Positions 44,200 to 61,385 of a stretch of DNA of 61,829 nucleotides are shown piece after piece. Each line of letters opens with the position of its first letter. Within the stretch, counting starts at the first letter, position 1. The position numbers and the translations under genes are program-made. The DNA comes from Candidatus Kaelpia aquatica. GTDB taxonomy: Bacteria > Omnitrophota > Gorgyraeia > Kaelpiales > Kaelpiaceae. Below the pieces are notes generated by a model. That model ran no database searches, had not been told where the DNA came from, and was given only the letters and a program-made list of their open reading frames with translations. The stretch lies in assembly GCA_030765335.1 (NCBI GenBank), contig JAVCCU010000016.1:1-61829 (forward strand), written 5' to 3'.

Positions 44200-45456
44200 T
44201 TATATATCCAGATACCTTCGAGGGTCGGCTATCTTTCCTTCTAAAACAGAGGCTGCAACCGTAGCGGGAGAACCTAGGTATATAAAGCTGTTTGGATTAC
44301 CCATCCTACCTTTAAAATTTCTATTTGCAGTTGATATCACAACCTCTTTATCAGCAGGCACTCCCCCATGAGTCCCTACGCAAGGCCCACATCCAGGAGG
44401 AAGTATCAATGCACCTGAAGAGAGAAGTATATCTATTAAGCCCTCATCTTGAGCCTGACTTAAGACACTCTTAGATGCCGGAGCAACTATTAATCTGGAC
44501 TTAACTCTCTTACCTTTAAGAATCCTAGCTGCCAGCTCTAAATCTTCCAATCTCCCATTGGTGCAGGTACCGATAAACCCCTGATCTATTTTAGTCCCAA
44601 TGAGATTGTCAATATCGACAACACTGTCCACTTGGTGAGGCTCAGCTACCTGAGGAGAGAGAGTAGATATATCAAACTCTTTGACCCACTCATATTCAGC
44701 TCCAGGATCAGCCATAACAGGGTTAAATTCCATGCTGCCGGTCTTATCCCCAAGCCATTTAGACGTCTTGTCATCAAGCTGCATTAGCCCTGCTTTTGCA
44801 CCCAACTCAACAGTCATATTGGTTATTGTACAGCGGGCTGCCATACTTAAATTAGATATAGCATCACCATCAAATTCAATTGCTTTATAAGTGCATGAAC
44901 TTGCACCAAGAACACCTATAATATGAAGTATTATATCTTTTGAAAAAACACCCTGAGGAAGATTGCCATTCAGTACGATTTTTACACTATGAGGAACTTT
45001 AAACCAATTCTTCCCCGTTGCAACAACTATCGCAATATCAGTTGATCCCATTCCGGTTGAGAAGCAGTTTAAAGCACCATAGGTACAGGTATGAGAATCG
45101 GCACCAGTTATAAGATTTGAAGGCAACACATGGCCATGTTCCATAATAACCTGATGACAGACTCCTTCTCCCTCTGCATATATTATTGCTCCGGTTAGAG
45201 AAGCAAAATCTTTCATCTTTTTGTGGATATTTGAAACACCTAGGCTGGGTGAAGGGACACTATGGTCAATAACAAGAGCATACTTCTTGGGATCCTTCAA
45301 AGTTTTAACACCAAGAGCATTTAATGCATCTATCACAAGCGAGCTTGTTCCATCTTGTGAAAGTGCAAAATCAACGCTGGCCCTTACAATATCTCCTGCT
45401 CTTGCTTCTGATTCAGATTTAAGACTAAAGATCTTCTCAGATATAGTCTTAGCCAT
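44200..45456 (-). CDS. leuC: 3-isopropylmalate dehydratase / homoaconitase large subunit
   Basis: DHSVP, GVCHQV, GADSHTCTYG, GTCTNGR, PGCGPC, NRNFKGRMG. Confidence 0.88.
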   Translation of the reverse strand: MAKTISEKIFSLKSESEARAGDIVRASVDFALSQDGTSSLVIDALNALGVKTLKDPKKYALVIDHSVPSPSLGVSNIHKKMKDFASLTGAIIYAEGEGVCHQVIMEHGHVLPSNLITGADSHTCTYGALNCFSTGMGSTDIAIVVATGKNWFKVPHSVKIVLNGNLPQGVFSKDIILHIIGVLGASSCTYKAIEFDGDAISNLSMAARCTITNMTVELGAKAGLMQLDDKTSKWLGDKTGSMEFNPVMADPGAEYEWVKEFDISTLSPQVAEPHQVDSVVDIDNLIGTKIDQGFIGTCTNGRLEDLELAARILKGKRVKSRLIVAPASKSVLSQAQDEGLIDILLSSGALILPPGCGPCVGTHGGVPADKEVVISTANRNFKGRMGNPNSFIYLGSPATVAASVLEGKIADPRRYLDI

Positions 45457-46603
45457 CTAAAAAACTCCCTACTCTATCTACCCCCTCTTTGATCTCTTCT
45501 ATGGATGCTGCATAACTCAAGCGGACATAATCATCGGCTCCAAAAGGCTCACCCGGTATAACACCGACCAACTTCTTATCCAGAAGATCTTGAGCGAAAG
45601 AAAAAGAACCGTTTTGAAACTTTGATATATCCATAAACAAGTAAAACGCACCTTCAGGCTTTATGAAAGATATCCCATAATTATCTAACATCTGCATCAT
45701 AACATCTCTTCTCTCTCTAAACTCTTTCTTTATAAAAGAGAGCCAGCTGTCATCCATTCTTAAAGCCGCAATAGCAGCTCTTTGACTTATACTCGATGCA
45801 TTTGACGTCATCTGAGATTGCATCTTTGTTACTTCAGAGACCAGCTCTATATTTGCACCTATCCAGCCGATCCGCCAACCTGTCATAGCATGAGACTTAG
45901 AGACACCGTTTATTGTTATAGTATTATTAAAAATATCTTCCGACAAAGACCCGATAGAGATATGTTTATCCTCATATACTAGATGTTCGTAAATCTCATC
46001 GCTTATTATCAATATATTTTTCTCTAAGGCTATTTTTCCAAGATGCTCTAGCTCATCTTCTCTCCAAACCATACCGGTTGGGTTGGTAGGACTATTCAAT
46101 ATAATACATTTTGTCTTTTTAGTAATAGCTGCTTTTAGTTTATCGAAGTCAGGCCTAAAACCACTCTCCTTGCTAGAGCTCACAATAACAGGAACTCCAG
46201 ATGAGAGCTTCACCATCTCAGTATAACTCAACCAGTAAGGAGCCATAATGATCACTTCATCGCCTACATCTATGAGGGCCATCAAAACATTCATCAGAGA
46301 ATGCTTTGCGCCATTGGAGACCACTATTTGGTCCGGATTATACTTAAGGTTGTTCTGAGCCCTAAACTTCTTTGAAATCTCTTCTCTCAATTCAGGCATT
46401 CCTGCAACCGGAGTATATTTTGTAAAACCGCCATCAATGGAATCTTTGGCGTAGGATTTTATCTCGTCTGGAGTATCAAAATTGGGCTCACCTGCGGCAA
46501 AATTTATTACAGGCTCACCCTCTCTCTTAAGCCTCTTGATGACAGAAGTTATCTTTAAAGTTTGAGAGGCTGATATACTTTTTACTCTCTTTGAAAAATC
46601 CAT
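45449..46603 (-). CDS. Class I/II PLP-dependent aminotransferase (AspC-like)
   Basis: AGEPNFDTP, NSPTNPTG, SDEIYE, GVSKSHAMTGWRIG. Confidence 0.92.
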   Translation of the reverse strand: MDFSKRVKSISASQTLKITSVIKRLKREGEPVINFAAGEPNFDTPDEIKSYAKDSIDGGFTKYTPVAGMPELREEISKKFRAQNNLKYNPDQIVVSNGAKHSLMNVLMALIDVGDEVIIMAPYWLSYTEMVKLSSGVPVIVSSSKESGFRPDFDKLKAAITKKTKCIILNSPTNPTGMVWREDELEHLGKIALEKNILIISDEIYEHLVYEDKHISIGSLSEDIFNNTITINGVSKSHAMTGWRIGWIGANIELVSEVTKMQSQMTSNASSISQRAAIAALRMDDSWLSFIKKEFRERRDVMMQMLDNYGISFIKPEGAFYLFMDISKFQNGSFSFAQDLLDKKLVGVIPGEPFGADDYVRLSYAASIEEIKEGVDRVGSFLDG

Positions 46604-46636: not shown

Positions 46637-47266
46637 CTATTTTTCCTTTTTGGCTTTTAAAAACCCTTTTAACCCCTGAAAAAATCCTTTCTCTTTATCA
46701 TCTTGCTTAACCTCTTTATCTTTGGAACCTTCGTCTATCTGTTTTTTTTCTTTTTTCTTATCGTCTTTTTCTGTCTTCGGCTTCTTGATCGCCTTCTCTT
46801 CCTCTACTTCTACCTCACCAACATCGCTAGACAGATCTTCTTCTATTCTCTTGGCTTTCTTTTCTTTTCTTAAACGGCGTGCTTTCTTTTTATCTTCAAT
46901 TACTTCTTCTTTTATCTTTGTCAACTCCAGAATAGCCATTAAGGCATTGTCACCGCGCCTATTGTCGGCTTTTAGAACACGGGTATAGCCTCCCTGCACA
47001 TCTTTAAATCGAGGAGCAATGTCGTCAAAGAGCTTTTTAACTAAGCTCCTATCTTGCAATAACTTATAAACCTCTCTGCGGGAATGTATATCACCTCTCT
47101 TGCCTAAAGTTATAAGCTTATCTATATGACGAGATGCTGCCTTAGCACGCTTATATGTCGTCTTTATACTCTCATTTATGATTAAAGATATCGCAAGGCT
47201 TTTGATTAAAGCTCTCCTTTGATCAGCAGGCTTAGATAGCAGAATAATTTTTTTGCGATGTCTCAT
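46637..47266 (-). CDS. rplQ: 50S ribosomal protein L17 with an approximately 90-aa C-terminal extension
   Basis: MRHRK, IKTT..RAK, GGYTRV, RRGDNA; 209 aa. Confidence 0.97.
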   Translation of the reverse strand: MRHRKKIILLSKPADQRRALIKSLAISLIINESIKTTYKRAKAASRHIDKLITLGKRGDIHSRREVYKLLQDRSLVKKLFDDIAPRFKDVQGGYTRVLKADNRRGDNALMAILELTKIKEEVIEDKKKARRLRKEKKAKRIEEDLSSDVGEVEVEEEKAIKKPKTEKDDKKKEKKQIDEGSKDKEVKQDDKEKGFFQGLKGFLKAKKEK

Positions 47267-47267
47267 T

Positions 47268-48269
47268 TTATGCTGCCTCCCCCTGCAATTTCATTTTTAC
47301 ATCCTGAGGTAATTCCATTCCAAAAGATATATTCATCTCTTTTAGGATATCATGCAGTTCATTTAAAGATTTTTTACCAAAGTTGCGATGTTGAAGCAAC
47401 TGCTGCTCTGTTAACTGAACAAGATCTCCTATCGTATGGATATTGGCATCTTTAAGACAATTAGCGCTTCTAACCGAGAGTTCCAACTCAGTTATAGGCA
47501 TCTTAATCTTATTTAAAAGATCATGGTCAAGCGCATCTACGACCTCTTCATCTTCCTCTTCGGCAACATCTCCCATCTGTGTAAAAACATCCAGATGCCT
47601 CTGCAAAATATATGCCCCATAAACTAAAGCTTCTTTAGGCTCAACACTCCCATCTGTTGTTATCTCTATTATCAGTCTTTCATAATTGGTTACAGCTCCA
47701 ACTCGTGTATTCTCCATTCTAAAATTCACTCCAGTAACAGGAGAGAAAAGAGAATCAATTGCAATGACACCTATAGAGTCATCCTCTCTTTTATTTCTAT
47801 CTGCCGGAACCCAGCCACGGCCACGTCCTACCTCCATCTCAATGTCAACGTCTACATTGTCAGTTACTGTTAAGATATGATGCTGAGGGTTAATAATCTC
47901 TACGGTCTCATCTGTTGTGATATCACCAGATTTATAATCTCCTTTTTTAGAAAGCTTCAAAATAACTTTCTTAGGCGCACGGGAATGAGACTTTAAAACC
48001 AGACCTTTAAGGTTTAACACTATTTGCGACACATCCTCAAGAACTCCTTTTATAGCAGAAAACTCATGGTCCACTCCTTTTATCTTCAAGGATGTAATCG
48101 AACTGCCTTCAATGGAAGAGAGCAATATTCTCCTCAATGAGTTGCCTACCGTCACAGCATAGCCTCTTTCAAATGGCTCAGCAACAAATTTTCCATAAGT
48201 AGGAGAATAGCTGTCTTCATCCCACTCTATCTTAACGGGCATCGCAAATTCTTTCATTCTTATTCCCAT
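47268..48269 (-). CDS. rpoA: RNA polymerase alpha subunit
   Basis: EPFERGYAVTVGNSLRRILLSS; CTD LELSVRSANCL. Confidence 0.98.
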   Translation of the reverse strand: MGIRMKEFAMPVKIEWDEDSYSPTYGKFVAEPFERGYAVTVGNSLRRILLSSIEGSSITSLKIKGVDHEFSAIKGVLEDVSQIVLNLKGLVLKSHSRAPKKVILKLSKKGDYKSGDITTDETVEIINPQHHILTVTDNVDVDIEMEVGRGRGWVPADRNKREDDSIGVIAIDSLFSPVTGVNFRMENTRVGAVTNYERLIIEITTDGSVEPKEALVYGAYILQRHLDVFTQMGDVAEEEDEEVVDALDHDLLNKIKMPITELELSVRSANCLKDANIHTIGDLVQLTEQQLLQHRNFGKKSLNELHDILKEMNISFGMELPQDVKMKLQGEAA

Positions 48270-50849: not shown

Positions 50850-51527
50850 TCAGAGGACCTTGATATTAATATCTTTTAATTTTTTCTCAACATGATTGAA
50901 AACGTCTGCAGCACTCAGGTCTCCTGAGACCTTAAAGAGAATGCCTTGCTGATCATAAAAACTTACAATATCTTCAATCTGTTCTTTATATACTTCCAGC
51001 CGTCTTTTAATGGTGCTCTCCCTATCGTCCTCTCTCTGATAGAGCTCGCCACCGCATCTATCACATGCACCTTCTTCTTGGGCTGGAGAATATTTTATAT
51101 GATAATTAGCTCCGCAATGTATGCAGACACGCCTTCCAGTTAAACGTTCAAGTATAACATCAACGCTGGCGTCTAAATAAAGGACTAGGTCTATCTCTTT
51201 CTCTATCTCTTTAAGGAGAATATCTAAGCCTTTAGTCTGTTCCATAGTTCGGGGAAAACCATCTAAAACAAAACCGCTGCTTGCATCTTCTCCCGACAAT
51301 TTCATCCTTACCATCTTAAGTACAACCTCATCTGGAACCAGCTCTCCTTTTTTAACATACCCCTCAAGTTCATTTGCAATCTCGCTGCTGCCATCTTTAA
51401 GAATCTCTCTAAACATATCTCCTGTTGAGATATGGGGTATCTTATAATGACGTGCTATTAAGTCTGCCTGAGTACCTTTACCTGCACCCGGAGAACCCAT
51501 TATAATCATATTGAGATGCCCTATCAT
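50850..51527 (-). CDS. adk: Adenylate kinase (zinc LID)
   Basis: GSPGAGKGTQ, STGDMFR, DGFPR, CIHC...CDRC; ATGA overlap with secY. Confidence 0.97.
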   Translation of the reverse strand: MIGHLNMIIMGSPGAGKGTQADLIARHYKIPHISTGDMFREILKDGSSEIANELEGYVKKGELVPDEVVLKMVRMKLSGEDASSGFVLDGFPRTMEQTKGLDILLKEIEKEIDLVLYLDASVDVILERLTGRRVCIHCGANYHIKYSPAQEEGACDRCGGELYQREDDRESTIKRRLEVYKEQIEDIVSFYDQQGILFKVSGDLSAADVFNHVEKKLKDINIKVL

Positions 51528-52867
51528 CTTCTACCTCTGATACGCCCTTTTCTCATAAAACCTTCATACTGCCTCATAAGAAGCTGCGACTCAAGCTGCC
51601 TCTCTGTGTCTAATAATACACCTACGATAATAAGTATACCCGTACCTCCAAAGAAACTAGCCACTAAGAAAGGTATGTGCAGAATGGTGGATATAATCGA
51701 GGGTAATACTGCAATAATTGCAAGAAATACAGCTCCGGGCAAGATAATTCTAGTCATAATTTTATCTAAATATTCTGAAGTATTATTACCAGGCCTTACT
51801 CCAGGAATAAAACCGCCATGCTTTTTCATGTTCTCTGCAACATCTTTAGGATTAAAGACAAGGGCTGTATAAAAATAACTGAAGAATATAATAAAACCGC
51901 TATAAAGAACATAGTAAAGTATGCCTTGCTGGCTAAATAGTGAGACTATTTTAGCTACAGCCGGATTATTAATGAAACCTCCTATAGTAGCCGGGAACAT
52001 CAATACAGACTGCGCAAAGATAATAGGGATAACTCCAGCCTGATTTATCCTCAAAGGAATAAAGGTGCTCTGCCCGCCATATACACGCCTGCCTATAACA
52101 CGCCTTGCATATTGAACTGGTATTTTCCGCTGACCCTGAGTTATAAGAACCACTCCTACAACCACAAGAACAAGCATCGCAGCCATAATAACCAAAGTGA
52201 AAGGCTGAATCTGACCTCCAGTAGGAGAGAATGGATCCAGAAGAGAGTAAAGCTGTATCATAGCAGAAGGCAACCTCGATATTATACCAGCTGTTATTAT
52301 AAGTGAAATACCATTGCCGATACCGAACTCTGTTATCTGTTCTCCTAGCCAAACTATAAACATAGTGCCTGTAACGAGAGTAAGAACAGCAGTAAACCTA
52401 AAGCTCCAACCAGGATTAAATACTATTTGATAACCCTGGAATGATTGAGGATTTTCCAGCCAGAGGCTTATAAAAAATGCCTGGAATAAAGTAATTATAA
52501 CCGTTAAGTACCTTGTATATTGATTGATCTTTTGCCTGCCGTTATCCTGATGAGCAACTCTCTCTAAGGCCGGAATAACAGGAGTAAGAACCTGTAATAT
52601 AATAGATGCAGAGATATAAGGCATGATACCTAAAGCAAAGATAGTCAACCTTTGTATGGCGCCACCACTAAACATATTTATCATTCCAAATAGAGTTCCC
52701 CCTGGTGTATCTGCAAGATTTTTAAAGAACTCAGATAAAGCCTGGCCATTAATACCTGGTGTAGGTATGTAAGAACCTATTCTATATACAGCGATAAGCG
52801 CTAAAGTTATTAGAATCTTACGCCGTAAATCCTTAATTTTAAAAGTGTTAGCTAATCCTCTAAACAT
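51524..52867 (-). CDS. secY: Preprotein translocase SecY
   Basis: FALGIMPYISASI, GIGNGISLII, AGVIPIIFA, GGFIPGVRPG. Confidence 0.98.
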   Translation of the reverse strand: MFRGLANTFKIKDLRRKILITLALIAVYRIGSYIPTPGINGQALSEFFKNLADTPGGTLFGMINMFSGGAIQRLTIFALGIMPYISASIILQVLTPVIPALERVAHQDNGRQKINQYTRYLTVIITLFQAFFISLWLENPQSFQGYQIVFNPGWSFRFTAVLTLVTGTMFIVWLGEQITEFGIGNGISLIITAGIISRLPSAMIQLYSLLDPFSPTGGQIQPFTLVIMAAMLVLVVVGVVLITQGQRKIPVQYARRVIGRRVYGGQSTFIPLRINQAGVIPIIFAQSVLMFPATIGGFINNPAVAKIVSLFSQQGILYYVLYSGFIIFFSYFYTALVFNPKDVAENMKKHGGFIPGVRPGNNTSEYLDKIMTRIILPGAVFLAIIAVLPSIISTILHIPFLVASFFGGTGILIIVGVLLDTERQLESQLLMRQYEGFMRKGRIRGRR

Positions 52868-52870
52868 TTT

Positions 52871-53314
52871 CTATTCTATTACCTTGGCTTCTCCGCCATT
52901 TGCCTCTATTTTCTCTATTGCTGTTGCGCTAAAAGCATGGACAGAGATTTTAAGTTTTTTCTTTAGCTGACCATTCCCTAAAACCTTAACCGGCTTGTTT
53001 GAATACCGTATCAATCCACTGCTCTTTAAAACATTAGGATCTATATCGGATAAACCTATCTTTTCTAAGTCGGAGAGATTGACGATCTGGAAAGAACGAG
53101 CAAATCTTTTATTGTTAAAACCTCTCTTAGGAATTCTTCTAATAAGAGGCATCTGTCCGCCTTCAAAATGAGCTCCTAGACCAGGACTCTTTCTAGAATT
53201 CTGTCCACTCATTCCTCTTGTAGAAGTCTTACCTCTTGTCGATCCGATTCCACGACCAACTCTCTTCCTATTCTTCTTAGCACCGCGAGGTGCTCTTAAA
53301 TCATTCAGCTGCAT
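52871..53314 (-). CDS. rplO: 50S ribosomal protein L15
   Basis: RVGRGIGS, FEGGQMPL.RR.PKRGF. Confidence 0.97.
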   Translation of the reverse strand: MQLNDLRAPRGAKKNRKRVGRGIGSTRGKTSTRGMSGQNSRKSPGLGAHFEGGQMPLIRRIPKRGFNNKRFARSFQIVNLSDLEKIGLSDIDPNVLKSSGLIRYSNKPVKVLGNGQLKKKLKISVHAFSATAIEKIEANGGEAKVIE

Positions 53315-53828
53315 CTTTCACCTCTTGAACTTCAACTTTATCTTCTTCCACTACTTTATTTTTCACTATATCTAAACCATCTCTACTGGTTCTTAGCTGC
53401 TCTAAACCATCTATCATCGCTTTTGATAGATTTATAGCATTAGGAGAGCCTAGAGACTTTGTAAGAATATCTTTTATACCCACCATCTCACATATCGCAC
53501 GCACAACACCGCCGGCAATAACTCCAGTACCGGCTGAAGCAGGCTTTAAGATGATTTTAGAAGCACCGAATCTACCAAGCACCTCATGGGGAATTGTAGA
53601 ATCAGAGAGCTTTATTGTAACCATATCTCTCTGCGCAGACTTTATGCCTTTCTTAATTGCATCAGCAACCTCATGGGCTTTACCAAGACTAATACCAACC
53701 CTGCCTTCTCCATTGCCAACGGCTACAAGAGCGTTAAAGGATATGGTCTTACCTCCTTTATTCGTCTTAGTAACACGATTAATTGCTATTACTTTTTCCA
53801 ATAATGCAAATCCCTGATTTTCAGGCAC
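53301..53828 (-). CDS. rpsE: 30S ribosomal protein S5
   Basis: INRVTK..KGG, GTGVIAGG. Confidence 0.97.
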   Translation of the reverse strand: MPENQGFALLEKVIAINRVTKTNKGGKTISFNALVAVGNGEGRVGISLGKAHEVADAIKKGIKSAQRDMVTIKLSDSTIPHEVLGRFGASKIILKPASAGTGVIAGGVVRAICEMVGIKDILTKSLGSPNAINLSKAMIDGLEQLRTSRDGLDIVKNKVVEEDKVEVQEVKDAAE

Positions 53829-58137: not shown

Positions 58138-58524
58138 CTATCTCTTTCCTCCTTTTGCTACTTTAGCTTTAGCCATCGTCGAACCTTTGCTCTTATAATC
58201 AAGTTCTATTGTAATATGAGAAGTCCTTCTCTTTATTGAAGAAGCCCTACCCATTGTCGCAGCTCTAAACCTACTTAAAGCAGGACCCTGATTTGCATAC
58301 ACACCTGATATGTAAAGACCCTCTTTTTCAATAGAGTTATTGTTCTTAGCATTAGCTACTGCAGATTGAAGCAACTTAACTACAATCGGAGCCCCTTTCT
58401 TATTTACATTCAAAAGCAGGCCTTCAGCAGAGATAACGTCCTTACCTCTAATCAAATCTAAAACCAGCCTCACCTTTAAAGGCGAAATTTTCACAAACCG
58501 TGCATGTGCTTTTGTAACTGCCAT
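58138..58524 (-). CDS. rplV: 50S ribosomal protein L22
   Basis: ISPLKVRLV, SAVANA, RTSHITI. Confidence 0.96.
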   Translation of the reverse strand: MAVTKAHARFVKISPLKVRLVLDLIRGKDVISAEGLLLNVNKKGAPIVVKLLQSAVANAKNNNSIEKEGLYISGVYANQGPALSRFRAATMGRASSIKRRTSHITIELDYKSKGSTMAKAKVAKGGKR

Positions 58525-59918: not shown

Positions 59919-60559
59919 TTTTTCTTTATCCTCTCACCAACTACACTTAAAGCCTCTTTAGATAGAACTATTTTTTTACAATTTAAAACATCGTAAGCAT
60001 TTAAGTTGATAGATTTTTTCACAAAGACACCCTCTATGTTCCTAGAAGATAAGTACAGATTATCTGATACATTTTCCGATACGAAAAGAGTCTTGAGCTT
60101 ATCTAATTTTAAATCTTTAACTATCTTTACAAAACTGCTGGTTTTAGGTTCATCCATCTGGAAATCTTCTATTAAAATCAACTCTTGATCTAGCAGTTTA
60201 GCGTTGAGTGAGGACTTCAAAGCTTCTATCTTCATTTTCTTAGGAATCCTCACAGAGTAATCTCTCATCCTAGGACCAAATACAGTTCCACCGCCCCTCC
60301 AGATGGGAGATCTATTACTACCGACTCTGGCACGTCCGGTACCTTTCTGCTTCCAAGGCTTACGGCCGCCGCCGCTTACTTCTCCTTTGGTTTTAGTCGA
60401 AGCTGTACCCTGTCTTTTATTTGCAAGGTAAGATGTTATAACCTGATGTAAGAGTTCTTTATTTACGCTGCCATCAAAAACATCCTTATCCAACTCAAAA
60501 TCGGCAACCTTATCTCCGGAGATATTAAGAATATCTATTGTGTAATCAATCTTCTTCAT
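59915..60559 (-). CDS. rplD: 50S ribosomal protein L4
   Basis: RQGT..TK, KPWKQKGTGRAR. Confidence 0.98.
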   Translation of the reverse strand: MKKIDYTIDILNISGDKVADFELDKDVFDGSVNKELLHQVITSYLANKRQGTASTKTKGEVSGGGRKPWKQKGTGRARVGSNRSPIWRGGGTVFGPRMRDYSVRIPKKMKIEALKSSLNAKLLDQELILIEDFQMDEPKTSSFVKIVKDLKLDKLKTLFVSENVSDNLYLSSRNIEGVFVKKSINLNAYDVLNCKKIVLSKEALSVVGERIKKK

Positions 60560-61385
60560 TATCTTTTTTTAAATCCTCGGGTTCTGACTTTATTACCTCT
60601 ATTCTATCTGCTTCTTCCTTCTTATTATTATCTATAGCATCTTCTTCTTTCTCTACTTTTTCTTCAGTAGATACTTTGACATCCTCAACGACCTCTTCTT
60701 TAGCTTCTTCTTGTTCTTCAGGTTTAAAGAGCTCGGCGTTTTTCTTCTTGGCGCTTTTTAATATAACCATAGAGTTCCTGGCCCCGGGTATACCACCTTT
60801 AAGCAGAATAAGATTATTCTCAAAATCTAAATCTATGATCTCAATATTTTGGACCGTTACCTTATCATCACCCATATGGCCTGCCATATGCAATCCTCTA
60901 AAAACACGAGATGGATCTGAGCTCTGCCCTATAGAACCAATGGCTCTATGCGATCTGCTGCCGTGGGATTTAGGACCAATACTCCACCCCCAGCGCTTCA
61001 CACCACCCTGAAAACCCTTACCCTTAGAGCGTGATGTGACATCTAAAAATTCACCTTGTTTGAAAATGTTGATCTTTAACTCCTCTCCTACCTTATAATG
61101 ATCTAACGCAGAACTATCCTCTATCCTTATCTCGCGCATCTCCTTTAAAGGCTCTATCTTCAACTTATTAAACTCACCCAAACGAGGCTTGGTCAATGTT
61201 CTCTTTTTCGGCTTAACTTTCCCATAGCCTAGCTTTATAGCATCATAACCATCGGTATCTTTTTTCTTTATAGCCATGACATAGCAAGGACCTGCAGAGA
61301 CAACTGTAACAGGTATAACCCTATTCTCTTTAAAAATCTGCGTCATTCCTATTTTTTTACCTAATAAACCTTTTATCGCAGTCAT
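60546..61385 (-). CDS. rplC: 50S ribosomal protein L3 with an acidic C-terminal extension
   Basis: KIGMTQ, KGKGFQG, MAGHMG; 279 aa. Confidence 0.97.
   Translation of the reverse strand: MTAIKGLLGKKIGMTQIFKENRVIPVTVVSAGPCYVMAIKKKDTDGYDAIKLGYGKVKPKKRTLTKPRLGEFNKLKIEPLKEMREIRIEDSSALDHYKVGEELKINIFKQGEFLDVTSRSKGKGFQGGVKRWGWSIGPKSHGSRSHRAIGSIGQSSDPSRVFRGLHMAGHMGDDKVTVQNIEIIDLDFENNLILLKGGIPGARNSMVILKSAKKKNAELFKPEEQEEAKEEVVEDVKVSTEEKVEKEEDAIDNNKKEEADRIEVIKSEPEDLKKDNEED

What the first reader, a model, noticed from the sequence alone, without database searches (positions are those of the whole stretch)
46637..46920. L17 tail ends in a MinD-like amphipathic helix: possible built-in ribosome-membrane tether
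Seen in sequence: after the L17 core come about 75 highly charged, low-complexity residues, then KGFFQGLKGFLKAKKEK (46640-46690), with Phe/Leu on one helical face and Lys on the other. Established: MinD binds membranes through a similar terminal helix (E. coli KKGFLKRLFGG), and L17 lies on the solvent side of the 50S subunit near the exit-tunnel face. Inference: a flexible linker plus membrane-targeting helix could hold ribosomes at the inner membrane near SecYEG/SecDF, useful for a small cell exporting very large proteins. I know of no description of this for a bacterial L17.
Basis: partly seen in the sequence, partly recalled or inferred. Interest (0 to 1): 0.72.

Follow-up and report, generated by a model that had tools for sequence, protein, structure and literature searches.

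The report
Ribosomal L17 with membrane-anchor tail
In this Omnitrophota bacterium, and in nearly all of its phylum, ribosomal protein L17 carries a long charged tail ending in a conserved peptide that looks like a lipid-binding membrane anchor, and the phylum also lacks the normally universal SRP system that brings ribosomes to the membrane, so the tail may be a built-in substitute (untested).

Summary
rplQ (46637-47266, minus strand) encodes a 209-aa bL17. It has a normal core (aa 1-117), a 75-aa K/E-rich tail and the end KGFFQGLKGFLKAKKEK (46640-46690).

In 67 of 68 Omnitrophota species genomes L17 ends in KK-G-F-[LF]-x-G-[LVI]-[RK]-x-[FI]-[FL]-K-K, although the linkers differ in length (34-107 aa) and sequence. 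The hydrophobic periodicity peaks at 100 degrees. The median hydrophobic moment is 0.73 and the net charge about +3, which is in the range of the MinD, FtsA and FtsY membrane-targeting helices.

New context: the SRP pathway is absent from the phylum.
- Ffh M domain: 0 native hits in 401 genomes. The single hit is a Desulfomonilaceae contaminant.
- SRP-type GTPase: only FlhF, in 3 of 121 genomes.
- SRP RNA: 0 of 121 and 0 of 36.
- Controls are positive.
- SecY, SecA and a YidC with a short C-tail are present.

Best reading (inference, untested): a lipid-binding helix on a flexible tail holds ribosomes at the inner membrane. This would replace the tethering normally given by FtsY/SRP, much as mitoribosomes are tethered.

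I found no description of either feature in the searchable literature.

The parts
46637..47266 (-). rplQ, encoding 209-aa ribosomal protein bL17 (stop codon at 46637-46639)
   Evidence: ORF list and sequence. Pfam PF01196, E=7.6e-35. A 100% identical protein and an 86% identical 'Ca. Kaelpia imicola' L17 are in the database.
46916..47266 (-). Canonical bL17 core, aa 1-117
   Evidence: Pfam domain at aa 20-115. AlphaFold2 pLDDT is above 90 for aa 11-120. It aligns to PDB bL17 chains over aa 1-120.
46829..46909 (-). Charged helix leaving the core, aa 120-146 (EEVIEDKKKARRLRKEKKAKRIEEDL)
   Evidence: AlphaFold2 predicts helix H120-146 with pLDDT about 85.
46691..46828 (-). Disordered K/E/D-rich linker, aa 147-192
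   Evidence: pLDDT below 50. Across the phylum, linkers are 31% K, 19% E, 10% P and 10% A, with a FLIMWY density of 0.044. Whole-tail length (linker plus terminal motif) ranges from 34 to 107 aa.
46640..46690 (-). Terminal basic amphipathic peptide KGFFQGLKGFLKAKKEK, aa 193-209; candidate membrane-targeting sequence
   Evidence: Hydrophobic moment 0.68, hydrophobicity 0.60, charge +2/+3. Conserved in 67 of 68 species genomes. Consensus and 100-degree periodicity. It is the only ORF C-terminus in the genome that ends a plausible protein with this motif; the scan's two other hits are short, non-basic ORF ends of 82 and 130 aa.
47268..48269 (-). rpoA, immediately upstream (operon context)
   Evidence: Pfam RNA_pol_A_bac, RNA_pol_L and the alpha CTD domain.
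51524..52867 (-). secY, the translocon channel, in the same ribosomal gene cluster
   Evidence: Pfam SecY, E=2.9e-112.
45449..46603 (-). Class I/II aminotransferase gene starting 33 nt after the rplQ stop codon. It is a neighbour, not part of the feature.
   Evidence: Pfam Aminotran_1_2, E=1.5e-78. The same neighbour follows rplQ in genome G111.

Best explanation
The tail of bL17 is a ribosome-borne membrane anchor. It has three parts: a short charged helix (aa 120-146), a disordered polyampholyte spacer of about 45 residues, and a terminal cationic amphipathic peptide (consensus KK-G-F-L-x-G-L-R-K-F-F-K-K). The peptide is unstructured in solution. On contact with anionic phospholipids it would fold into a helix, with the Phe/Leu/Ile face buried in the bilayer interface and the Lys/Arg residues pairing with lipid head groups. 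This is how the MinD and FtsA C-termini and the FtsY lipid-binding helix work. bL17 sits in the ring around the polypeptide exit, and the tail can span roughly 5-20 nm. Each 50S subunit would therefore be held reversibly at the inner membrane with its exit face towards SecYEG and YidC. Omnitrophota have lost Ffh, FtsY and SRP RNA, so this constant, signal-independent tether would supply the ribosome-membrane proximity that FtsY/SRP normally provides. The situation is analogous to mitoribosomes, which lost SRP and are tethered by mL45/Mba1. What is shown: the anatomy, the conservation, the helical amphipathicity and the absence of SRP. What is inferred: lipid binding, ribosome localisation and compensation for SRP loss.
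For: 1. Conservation despite linker divergence. 29 of 29, 19 of 20 and 19 of 19 L17 tails from different Omnitrophota species end in the motif. Tail length ranges from 34 to 107 aa, and linker composition ranges from K/E-rich to P/A-rich.
2. Amphipathicity. The median hydrophobic moment is 0.73, hydrophobicity 0.43 and charge +3. Periodicity peaks at 100 degrees. In 85% of proteins, tail shuffles reach the observed moment in at most 1% of trials.
3. Substitutions keep the residue class rather than the identity (F/L/I/V/W; K/R). This is expected for lipid binding more than for a specific protein docking site.
4. Some variants are nearly identical to the E. coli MinD targeting sequence. GFFKRLFGRKDK (L034) compares with KKGFLKRLFGG (from memory). 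The pattern GF[FL]xxLxxxF also matches the N-terminal helices of verrucomicrobial FtsY read here: MPLGFLKNLVAKF and AGFFQKILQRF.
5. FtsY's positively charged amphipathic helix binds anionic lipids and is universally conserved (PMC3128533). In E. coli, FtsY rather than SRP is required to bring ribosomes to the membrane (abstract of PMC2173083).
6. bL17 is part of the ring around the tunnel exit (PMC9409020).
7. SRP is absent phylum-wide. The PF00448 domain occurs only as FlhF, in 3 of 121 genomes. PF02978 gives 0 of 121 and 1 of 401, and that one hit is 74-77% identical to Desulfomonile Ffh and sits on a contig of deviant composition. RF00169 gives 0 of 121 and 0 of 36. The window's own genome is negative by phmmer and tblastn. 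Controls are positive in 14 of 14, 14 of 14 and 12-13 of 14 reference genomes, and in 10 of 10 Verrucomicrobiota genomes.
8. SecY, SecA and YidC are present, and YidC has no Oxa1/YidC2-type ribosome-binding tail.
9. AlphaFold2 leaves the linker disordered and does not pack the terminal peptide against the core.
Against: No experiment shows lipid binding or membrane-proximal ribosomes. AlphaFold2 does not predict a helix for the terminal peptide (pLDDT 56-59). That is usual for such peptides but gives no positive support. Gly before the first Phe and at the fourth helix position, and Phe at the first position, are more conserved than simple amphipathicity requires, which leaves room for a specific partner. 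One SRP-less genome (G111) has an L17 tail without the motif and shows no frameshift, so the motif is not indispensable. Tail gain and SRP loss each map to the base of one phylum, so the association rests on a single evolutionary event. Chthoniobacterales (Verrucomicrobiota) have a tailed L17 ending in KKRRWFGRKS yet keep Ffh and FtsY, so tailed L17 does not require SRP loss. A high C-terminal hydrophobic moment is not in itself unusual (rank 102 of 2352).
Confidence: 0.5

Rival explanations
1. The terminal peptide is a short linear motif that docks onto a specific protein rather than onto lipid. Candidates are SecY, SecA, YidC, trigger factor or a phylum-specific membrane receptor. The tail would then recruit that factor to the exit site.
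For: Gly at position -1 (46 of 62), Phe at position 0 (50 of 62), Gly at +3 (36 of 62) and Arg/Lys at +5 (58 of 62) are conserved more strongly than generic amphipathicity demands. A large clade adds a conserved -KKERD(A/S)L end after the helix. bL17 is at the exit ring, where biogenesis factors bind.
Against: The hydrophobic positions exchange freely among F, L, I, V and W. Whole variants such as GFFKKFFGKKD, GLGRLFKK and LLGGLGSLLRKKR differ greatly yet remain cationic and amphipathic. No partner gene was identified. The motif is unique to L17 in this genome, so there is no sign of a shared docking code.
Confidence: 0.15
2. The tail is a nucleic-acid-binding extension. The Lys-rich segment, ending in aromatic residues, would bind rRNA, mRNA or DNA. 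It would stabilise the ribosome or link it to the nucleoid or to RNA polymerase, like the basic extensions of many ribosomal proteins or histone H1-like tails.
For: The linker is 31% Lys. rplQ is adjacent to rpoA. bL17 extensions occur in ribosome structures of other phyla, for example the 180-199-aa mycobacterial bL17 in the PDB.
Against: The linker is a polyampholyte (19% Glu plus Asp) and in some clades is Pro/Ala-rich or acidic. Its length and sequence are not conserved, unlike rRNA-bound extensions. The conserved part is a hydrophobic-faced helix with 100-degree periodicity, which is not a typical RNA-binding element. AlphaFold2 does not fold it back onto the core.
Confidence: 0.12
3. The tail acts in ribosome assembly, hibernation or ribosome-ribosome pairing, or in regulating L17 itself. 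Examples would be an amphipathic helix that mediates 50S-50S contacts, or a degradation or autoregulation signal.
For: Phylum-wide conservation shows selection but does not identify the target. Small-celled, slow-growing bacteria often have unusual hibernation arrangements (general knowledge).
Against: Nothing in the sequence points to this. Known hibernation and pairing factors are separate proteins. A cationic helix on a flexible spacer 34-107 aa long is a poor fit for a fixed ribosome-ribosome interface.
Confidence: 0.08
4. The tail is a neutral low-complexity extension with no function, and the terminal motif is a chance feature.
For: Low-complexity K/E tails arise easily in AT-rich genomes (37% GC).
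Against: The motif is retained in 67 of 68 species across several classes while the linkers diverge beyond alignment. Tail shuffles give 0.24 matches of 68 against 62 observed.
Confidence: 0.02

Closest known systems
C-terminal membrane-targeting sequence of MinD (E. coli ...KKGFLKRLFGG) and of FtsA
   Same: It is a terminal, short, cationic amphipathic peptide placed after a flexible segment. The pattern is G-F-hydrophobic / basic. The hydrophobic moment, hydrophobicity and charge fall in the same range. Some Omnitrophota variants (GFFKRLFGRKDK) are almost the same sequence. The genome's own FtsA-like protein also ends in an amphipathic peptide.
   Different: Here the peptide is attached to a core ribosomal protein, not to a division ATPase. 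The spacer is much longer (34-107 aa). There is no nucleotide-dependent dimerisation switch to regulate binding. The genome has no true MinD. The MinD and FtsA sequences are quoted from memory.
Lipid-binding amphipathic helices of the SRP receptor FtsY (E. coli residues 195-207 and the N-terminus)
   Same: It is a positively charged amphipathic helix that binds anionic phospholipids and brings ribosomes to the membrane (PMC3128533; PMC2173083). The motif GF[FL]xxLxxxF is seen in verrucomicrobial FtsY N-termini and in the L17 ends.
   Different: FtsY is a GTPase that acts with Ffh and 4.5S RNA, and its targeting depends on a signal sequence. The L17 tail has no GTPase and no signal recognition, so any tethering would be constant. 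FtsY, Ffh and SRP RNA are absent from this phylum.
Mitoribosome membrane tethers mL45/Mba1, and the Oxa1 C-terminal tail
   Same: A translation system that has lost SRP keeps its ribosomes permanently at the membrane through a ribosome-associated element near the tunnel exit (PMC8321541).
   Different: mL45/Mba1 is a folded Tim44-like protein and an additional subunit. Here the element is a 15-residue peptide on an existing bacterial protein. The YidC of this genome has no Oxa1-like tail. This is an analogy only, not homology.
bL17 with C-terminal extensions in other bacteria (mycobacteria, Cutibacterium, Flavobacterium; Chthoniobacterales)
   Same: The core fold is the same, and there is a lineage-specific C-terminal extension of 40-90 aa.
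   Different: Those tails are Ala/Pro/Glu-rich or basic and lack the terminal amphipathic helix. The Chthoniobacterales tail ends in a shorter basic-aromatic KKRRWFGRKS, and those genomes keep SRP.

Membership tests
Ribosomal protein bL17 (Pfam PF01196) | Match to the Ribosomal_L17 profile above the gathering score | tested here: met
   120.1 bits against a cut-off of 27; aa 20-115 match profile positions 1-96 of 97.
Ribosomal protein bL17 (Pfam PF01196) | Conserved operon position after rpoA; single copy; present throughout the lineage | tested here: met
   The order is S13-S11-S4-rpoA-rplQ. There is one match per genome in 395 of 401 Omnitrophota genomes.
MinD/FtsA/FtsY-type amphipathic-helix membrane-targeting sequence | Short terminal peptide with alpha-helical amphipathic periodicity and a face of large hydrophobic residues | tested here: met
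   Hydrophobic moment 0.68 in this genome, median 0.73 in 68 species. Periodicity peaks at 100 degrees. Hydrophobic residues sit at i, i+1, i+4, i+7 and i+8.
MinD/FtsA/FtsY-type amphipathic-helix membrane-targeting sequence | Net positive charge in and around the helix, to bind anionic lipids | tested here: met
   Median charge is +3 in the best 11-mer. The motif is preceded by KK and followed by K-[KGR].
MinD/FtsA/FtsY-type amphipathic-helix membrane-targeting sequence | Separated from the folded domain by a flexible segment; unstructured off the membrane | tested here: inconclusive
   AlphaFold2 gives pLDDT below 50 for aa 150-183 and 56-59 for the terminal peptide, with no helix and no packing on the core. 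This is consistent with the feature but does not prove it.
MinD/FtsA/FtsY-type amphipathic-helix membrane-targeting sequence | Autonomous membrane or liposome binding, abolished by charge substitution of hydrophobic residues | not testable with these tools
   This needs GFP-fusion localisation and liposome flotation or CD experiments.
Mitoribosomal tether mL45/Mba1 | Tim44-like folded domain bound at the tunnel exit | tested here: not met
   The tail has no Pfam domain at E<=1 and is predicted to be a helix followed by disorder. It is a functional analogue only.
SRP targeting pathway (Ffh, FtsY, 4.5S RNA) in this organism | Presence of the SRP54-type NG GTPase, the Ffh M domain and SRP RNA | tested here: not met
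   The window's own genome has no PF00448 hit and is negative in the phylum-wide PF02978 and RF00169 searches. phmmer and tblastn are also negative. The only Ffh found is a contaminant.

The most novel reading that the evidence does not exclude
Omnitrophota would be a whole bacterial phylum that has dispensed with the signal recognition particle pathway (no Ffh, no FtsY, no SRP RNA). In its place, an FtsY/MinD-like lipid-binding helix has been built onto ribosomal protein bL17, so that ribosomes are constantly tethered to the inner membrane next to SecYEG and YidC. That would be a bacterial parallel to the membrane-tethered, SRP-less mitoribosome. Co-translational membrane protein insertion would then rely on proximity rather than on signal-sequence recognition.
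Probability: 0.3. Interest if true: 0.92.

Novelty: new variant of a known kind. Interest (0 to 1): 0.8.

Why it matters
SRP and its receptor are treated as universal parts of the protein-targeting machinery. The best-known exceptions are mitochondria and some extremely reduced symbionts. The data here indicate that a widespread environmental phylum of bacteria with 1-4-Mb genomes lacks the whole pathway. They also indicate that its ribosomes carry a conserved peptide of the kind that anchors MinD, FtsA and FtsY to lipid. If the peptide does bind membrane, this would be the first ribosome-intrinsic membrane anchor described in bacteria. It would show a second, independent route to life without SRP, and it would explain how very small cells organise membrane protein synthesis. 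It would also give a natural minimal module (spacer plus helix) for tethering ribosomes in synthetic biology. The idea is directly testable with peptides, GFP fusions and an E. coli SRP-depletion rescue experiment. The absence of SRP also matters for genome-quality estimates, because ffh and ftsY are standard marker genes.

Tried and rejected
1. I looked for a MinD in the same genome to compare targeting sequences. Only weak ParA-like hits were found, with no true MinD. The FtsA-like protein does end in an amphipathic peptide.
2. A genome-wide ranking by C-terminal hydrophobic moment puts L17 only 102nd of 2352. The moment alone does not discriminate, because many folded proteins end in amphipathic helices.
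3. I tested whether YidC carries an Oxa1/YidC2-like basic ribosome-binding tail that could compensate for SRP loss. It does not; the protein ends ...LQSMHKK.
4. The single Ffh hit among 401 genomes (G241, contig C8) was examined as a possible retained SRP. I rejected it as a binning contaminant. It is 74-77% identical to Desulfomonile/Desulfomonilaceae Ffh, its GC content is 47.8% against 44.4%, and its tetranucleotide distance is twice the within-contig value.
5. The three real PF00448 hits were examined as possible FtsY or Ffh. They are FlhF-like: about 395 aa with an FlhF-type N-terminus.
6. G111's motif-less L17 was checked for a frameshift that might hide the motif. None was found.
7. The largest ORF is 2072 aa.
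8. AlphaFold2 did not give a confident structure for the terminal peptide. I did not run a fold search because the core is an ordinary bL17.
9. Seven literature searches for L17 tails with amphipathic helices, or for Omnitrophota/Omnitrophica with SRP, ffh or ftsY, found nothing relevant.
10. I did not use the last homology search on the tail alone. A 15-residue motif inside K/E-rich low complexity cannot reach significance against 5.8 billion sequences.

Full report
**The gene and the observation.** The window is contig C17 of a 1.34-Mb, 37% GC, roughly 98% complete metagenome-assembled genome. The closest named L17 (86% identity) is from Candidatus Kaelpia imicola, and the other named hits are 'Candidatus Omnitrophica bacterium'. 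Kaelpia belongs to Candidatus Omnitrophota in the PVC group. The ORF at 46637..47266 on the minus strand encodes 209 aa. Pfam places Ribosomal_L17 at aa 20-115 (E=7.6e-35). The gene follows rpoA in the usual S13-S11-S4-rpoA-rplQ order, and secY lies further upstream. After the core come about 75 K/E/D-rich residues and then KGFFQGLKGFLKAKKEK, which maps exactly to 46640-46690.

**Physical character of the end.** For GFFQGLKGFLK the hydrophobic moment (Fauchere-Pliska scale, 100 degrees) is 0.68, the mean hydrophobicity 0.60 and the charge +2, or +3 with the preceding Lys. The HeliQuest-type discriminant is 1.3-1.6. A high moment at a C-terminus is not rare in this genome: L17 ranks 102nd of 2352 ORFs, because many folded proteins end in amphipathic helices. 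What is unusual is that the peptide follows a long stretch with almost no hydrophobic residues. Apart from two short, non-basic ORF ends (82 and 130 aa), no other ORF in the genome ends with this sequence pattern.

AlphaFold2 was run with a 63-sequence alignment.
- The core is modelled at pLDDT above 90.
- A charged helix at aa 120-146 has pLDDT of about 85.
- Residues 150-183 are disordered (pLDDT below 50).
- The terminal peptide scores 56-59 and has no contact with the core.

The tail is therefore a stalk of about 4 nm followed by a flexible spacer of about 45 residues, giving a reach of roughly 5-20 nm. That range is my estimate from residue counts.

A search of 401 species-representative genomes of the phylum found L17 in 395. 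Open frames were almost always 170-230 aa, against about 120 aa for ordinary bL17. I read the protein in 68 genomes from many families and several classes. The set included 20 genomes in which the tail had contributed little or nothing to the search hit. In 67 of the 68, the protein ends in a cationic amphipathic peptide.

- Tail length varies from 34 to 107 aa.
- Linker composition varies from K/E-rich to P/A-rich.
- Linker sequences cannot be aligned between families.

Anchoring the ends gives the consensus KK-G-F-[LF]-x-G-[LVI]-[RK]-[KGR]-[FI]-[FL]-K-[KGR]. The anchoring pattern matches 62 of 68 real tails, a mean of 0.24 of 68 shuffled tails, and no linker. Hydrophobic periodicity peaks sharply at 100 degrees (0.675, against 0.13 at 180 degrees). 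Large hydrophobic residues make up 4% of linkers and 25% of the last 20 residues. In 85% of proteins, at most 1% of tail shuffles reach the observed moment. The prediction that would have refuted the idea, that the terminal motif is not conserved, fails clearly. One genome (G111) has a tail without the motif and shows no frameshift.

**Resemblance to validated membrane-targeting sequences.** The median values for the L17 ends are moment 0.73, hydrophobicity 0.43 and charge +3. Some Omnitrophota ends (GFFKRLFGRKDK, GFFKKFFGKKD) are nearly the MinD sequence KKGFLKRLFGG. FtsY's positively charged amphipathic helix binds anionic phospholipids, is described as universally conserved, and is essential for co-translational targeting (PMC3128533). 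In E. coli, FtsY rather than SRP is needed to bring ribosomes to the membrane (abstract of PMC2173083). bL17 is listed among the proteins forming the ring around the tunnel exit (PMC9409020).

**An unexpected context: no SRP.** I looked for this genome's FtsY to compare helices and found no SRP-type GTPase at all.

Across the phylum the results are:
- **SRP54-type GTPase domain (PF00448):** 3 real matches in 121 genomes that are at least 90% complete. All three are FlhF-like, about 395 aa with the FlhF N-terminal domain. Every other hit is a roughly 20-bit P-loop match.
- **Ffh M domain (PF02978):** 0 of 121 and 1 of 401. The single hit (G241, contig C8) is 74-77% identical to Desulfomonile/Desulfomonilaceae Ffh and lies on a contig of deviant GC and tetranucleotide composition. 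It is a binning contaminant.
- **SRP RNA (RF00169):** 0 of 121, and 0 of 36 at E<=0.1 with the laxer filters.

The same searches were positive in 14 of 14, 14 of 14 and 12-13 of 14 reference genomes. Ten Verrucomicrobiota genomes, mostly MAGs, had Ffh-sized or FtsY-sized hits, and nine of them had both. The absence is therefore not an artefact of MAG quality. SecY (window), SecA and YidC are present in the window's genome. YidC ends ...LQSMHKK and has no Oxa1/YidC2-type ribosome-binding tail. I found no paper that mentions Omnitrophota or Omnitrophica together with loss of SRP.

**Most likely mechanism.** I propose that the bL17 tail is a ribosome-borne membrane anchor: stalk, flexible spacer and a lipid-binding amphipathic helix. 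It would hold 50S subunits reversibly at the anionic inner membrane with the exit face towards SecYEG and YidC. In a phylum without FtsY and SRP it would supply the ribosome-membrane proximity that FtsY's own helix normally provides, and it would do so constantly and without signal recognition. The closest functional parallel is the mitoribosome. Most mitochondria lost SRP, and their ribosomes are tethered to the inner membrane by mL45/Mba1 and the Oxa1 tail (PMC8321541).

What is shown: the gene, the tail anatomy, phylum-wide conservation of a helical cationic amphipathic end, absence of SRP components, and presence of Sec and YidC. What is inferred: lipid binding, ribosome localisation and compensation.

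I give the membrane-anchor reading about 0.5-0.6. I give the stronger claim, that it functionally replaces SRP/FtsY tethering, about 0.3.

**Points against, and rivals.**
- Membrane binding is untested, and AlphaFold2 gives no positive support for a helix.
- Gly before the first Phe and at +3, Phe at position 0 and Arg/Lys at +5 are more conserved than bare amphipathicity needs. One large clade also adds a conserved -KKERD(A/S)L end. A specific protein partner therefore remains possible (0.15).
- A nucleic-acid-binding role (0.12) is disfavoured by the polyampholyte, non-conserved linker and by the hydrophobic-faced helix.
- Assembly, hibernation or regulatory roles (0.08) have no specific support.
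- A neutral extension (0.02) is excluded by the conservation.
- The link to SRP loss rests on one evolutionary event.
- G111 lacks both SRP and the motif.
- Chthoniobacterales/Udaeobacter (Verrucomicrobiota) have a tailed L17 ending in KPKKRRWFGRKS while keeping SRP. L17 tails with basic-aromatic ends can therefore exist alongside SRP.

**Comparison with known systems and novelty.** The protein is an unquestionable bL17. The terminal peptide works like a MinD/FtsA/FtsY-type membrane-targeting sequence by every sequence criterion I could test, but the defining experimental criterion of autonomous membrane binding cannot be tested here. It is not a member of the mL45/Mba1 family, because it has no folded domain. 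PDB ribosome structures include bL17 proteins with extensions (mycobacteria and others), but none with this end. It is not independent evidence, and as far as the notes show it did not report the absence of SRP. I class the feature as a new variant of a known kind: a known type of lipid-binding peptide in a new place, on a core ribosomal protein, in a phylum that appears to have lost SRP.

**Verdict.** Interest is 0.8.

Noticed in passing
whole genome G000 and 401 genomes of the phylum (no window coordinates): The SRP pathway appears absent from Omnitrophota. There is no native Ffh M domain in 401 genomes and no Ffh/FtsY GTPase in 121. There is no SRP RNA in 121 or in 36 genomes. Controls are positive. 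I found no report of this in the searchable literature.
   Followed up: yes
loci L057-L083 and L105 (Verrucomicrobiota: Ca. Udaeobacter / Chthoniobacterales): L17 in this soil lineage has an acidic, Pro-rich tail of about 70-90 aa ending in a strictly conserved KPKKRRWFGRKS. Other Verrucomicrobiota L17 tails lack it. These genomes keep Ffh and FtsY.
   Followed up: partly
window 60546-61385 (-): uL3 is 279 aa and has a strongly acidic C-terminal extension of about 70 aa (...EEQEEAKEEVVEDVKVSTEEKVEKEEDAIDNNKKEEADRIEVIKSEPEDLKKDNEED). This is a second tailed ribosomal protein in the same cluster.
   Followed up: no
window 53301-53828 (-) and 58138-58524 (-): uS5 ends in an acidic tail (VVEEDKVEVQEVKDAAE). 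uL22 ends in a Lys-rich tail (KSKGSTMAKAKVAKGGKR). The exit-site proteins uL23 (90 aa), uL24 (103 aa) and uL29 (68 aa) are of ordinary length.
   Followed up: no
loci L015, L021, L027, L028, L031, L033, L035, L051, L144, L146-L150, L153, L154, L156, L158 and others: In a large subset of Omnitrophota, the L17 amphipathic helix is followed by a conserved C-terminal -KKERD(A/S)L (about 20 of 62 anchored tails). Its meaning is unknown. It could be a second, clade-specific signal.
   Followed up: no
G241 contig C8 (locus L170, 10701-12236): An Ffh gene in an Omnitrophota MAG is 74-77% identical to Desulfomonile/Desulfomonilaceae Ffh and lies on a contig with deviant GC. The contig is probably a binning contaminant in a public genome.
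   Followed up: yes
G150 C157:18097-18663, G043 C1:300125-300685, G131 C45:17862-18422 (loci L137-L139): Three of 121 Omnitrophota genomes encode an FlhF-like SRP-type GTPase of about 395 aa. It is the only member of that GTPase family left in the phylum and suggests flagellated lineages.
   Followed up: partly
G000 contig C20:27428-28606 (+): An FtsA-like protein (392 aa; 117.6 bits, below the TIGR01174 cut-off) ends in the amphipathic peptide ...FARKGLGKIYQIFDKYF. The genome has no true MinD.
   Followed up: partly
G111 (locus L053): This is the only sampled Omnitrophota L17 whose tail lacks the amphipathic end (...KKGPAGAAQKSKGAKKSDG). It is followed by the same aminotransferase gene as in the window.
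   Followed up: partly
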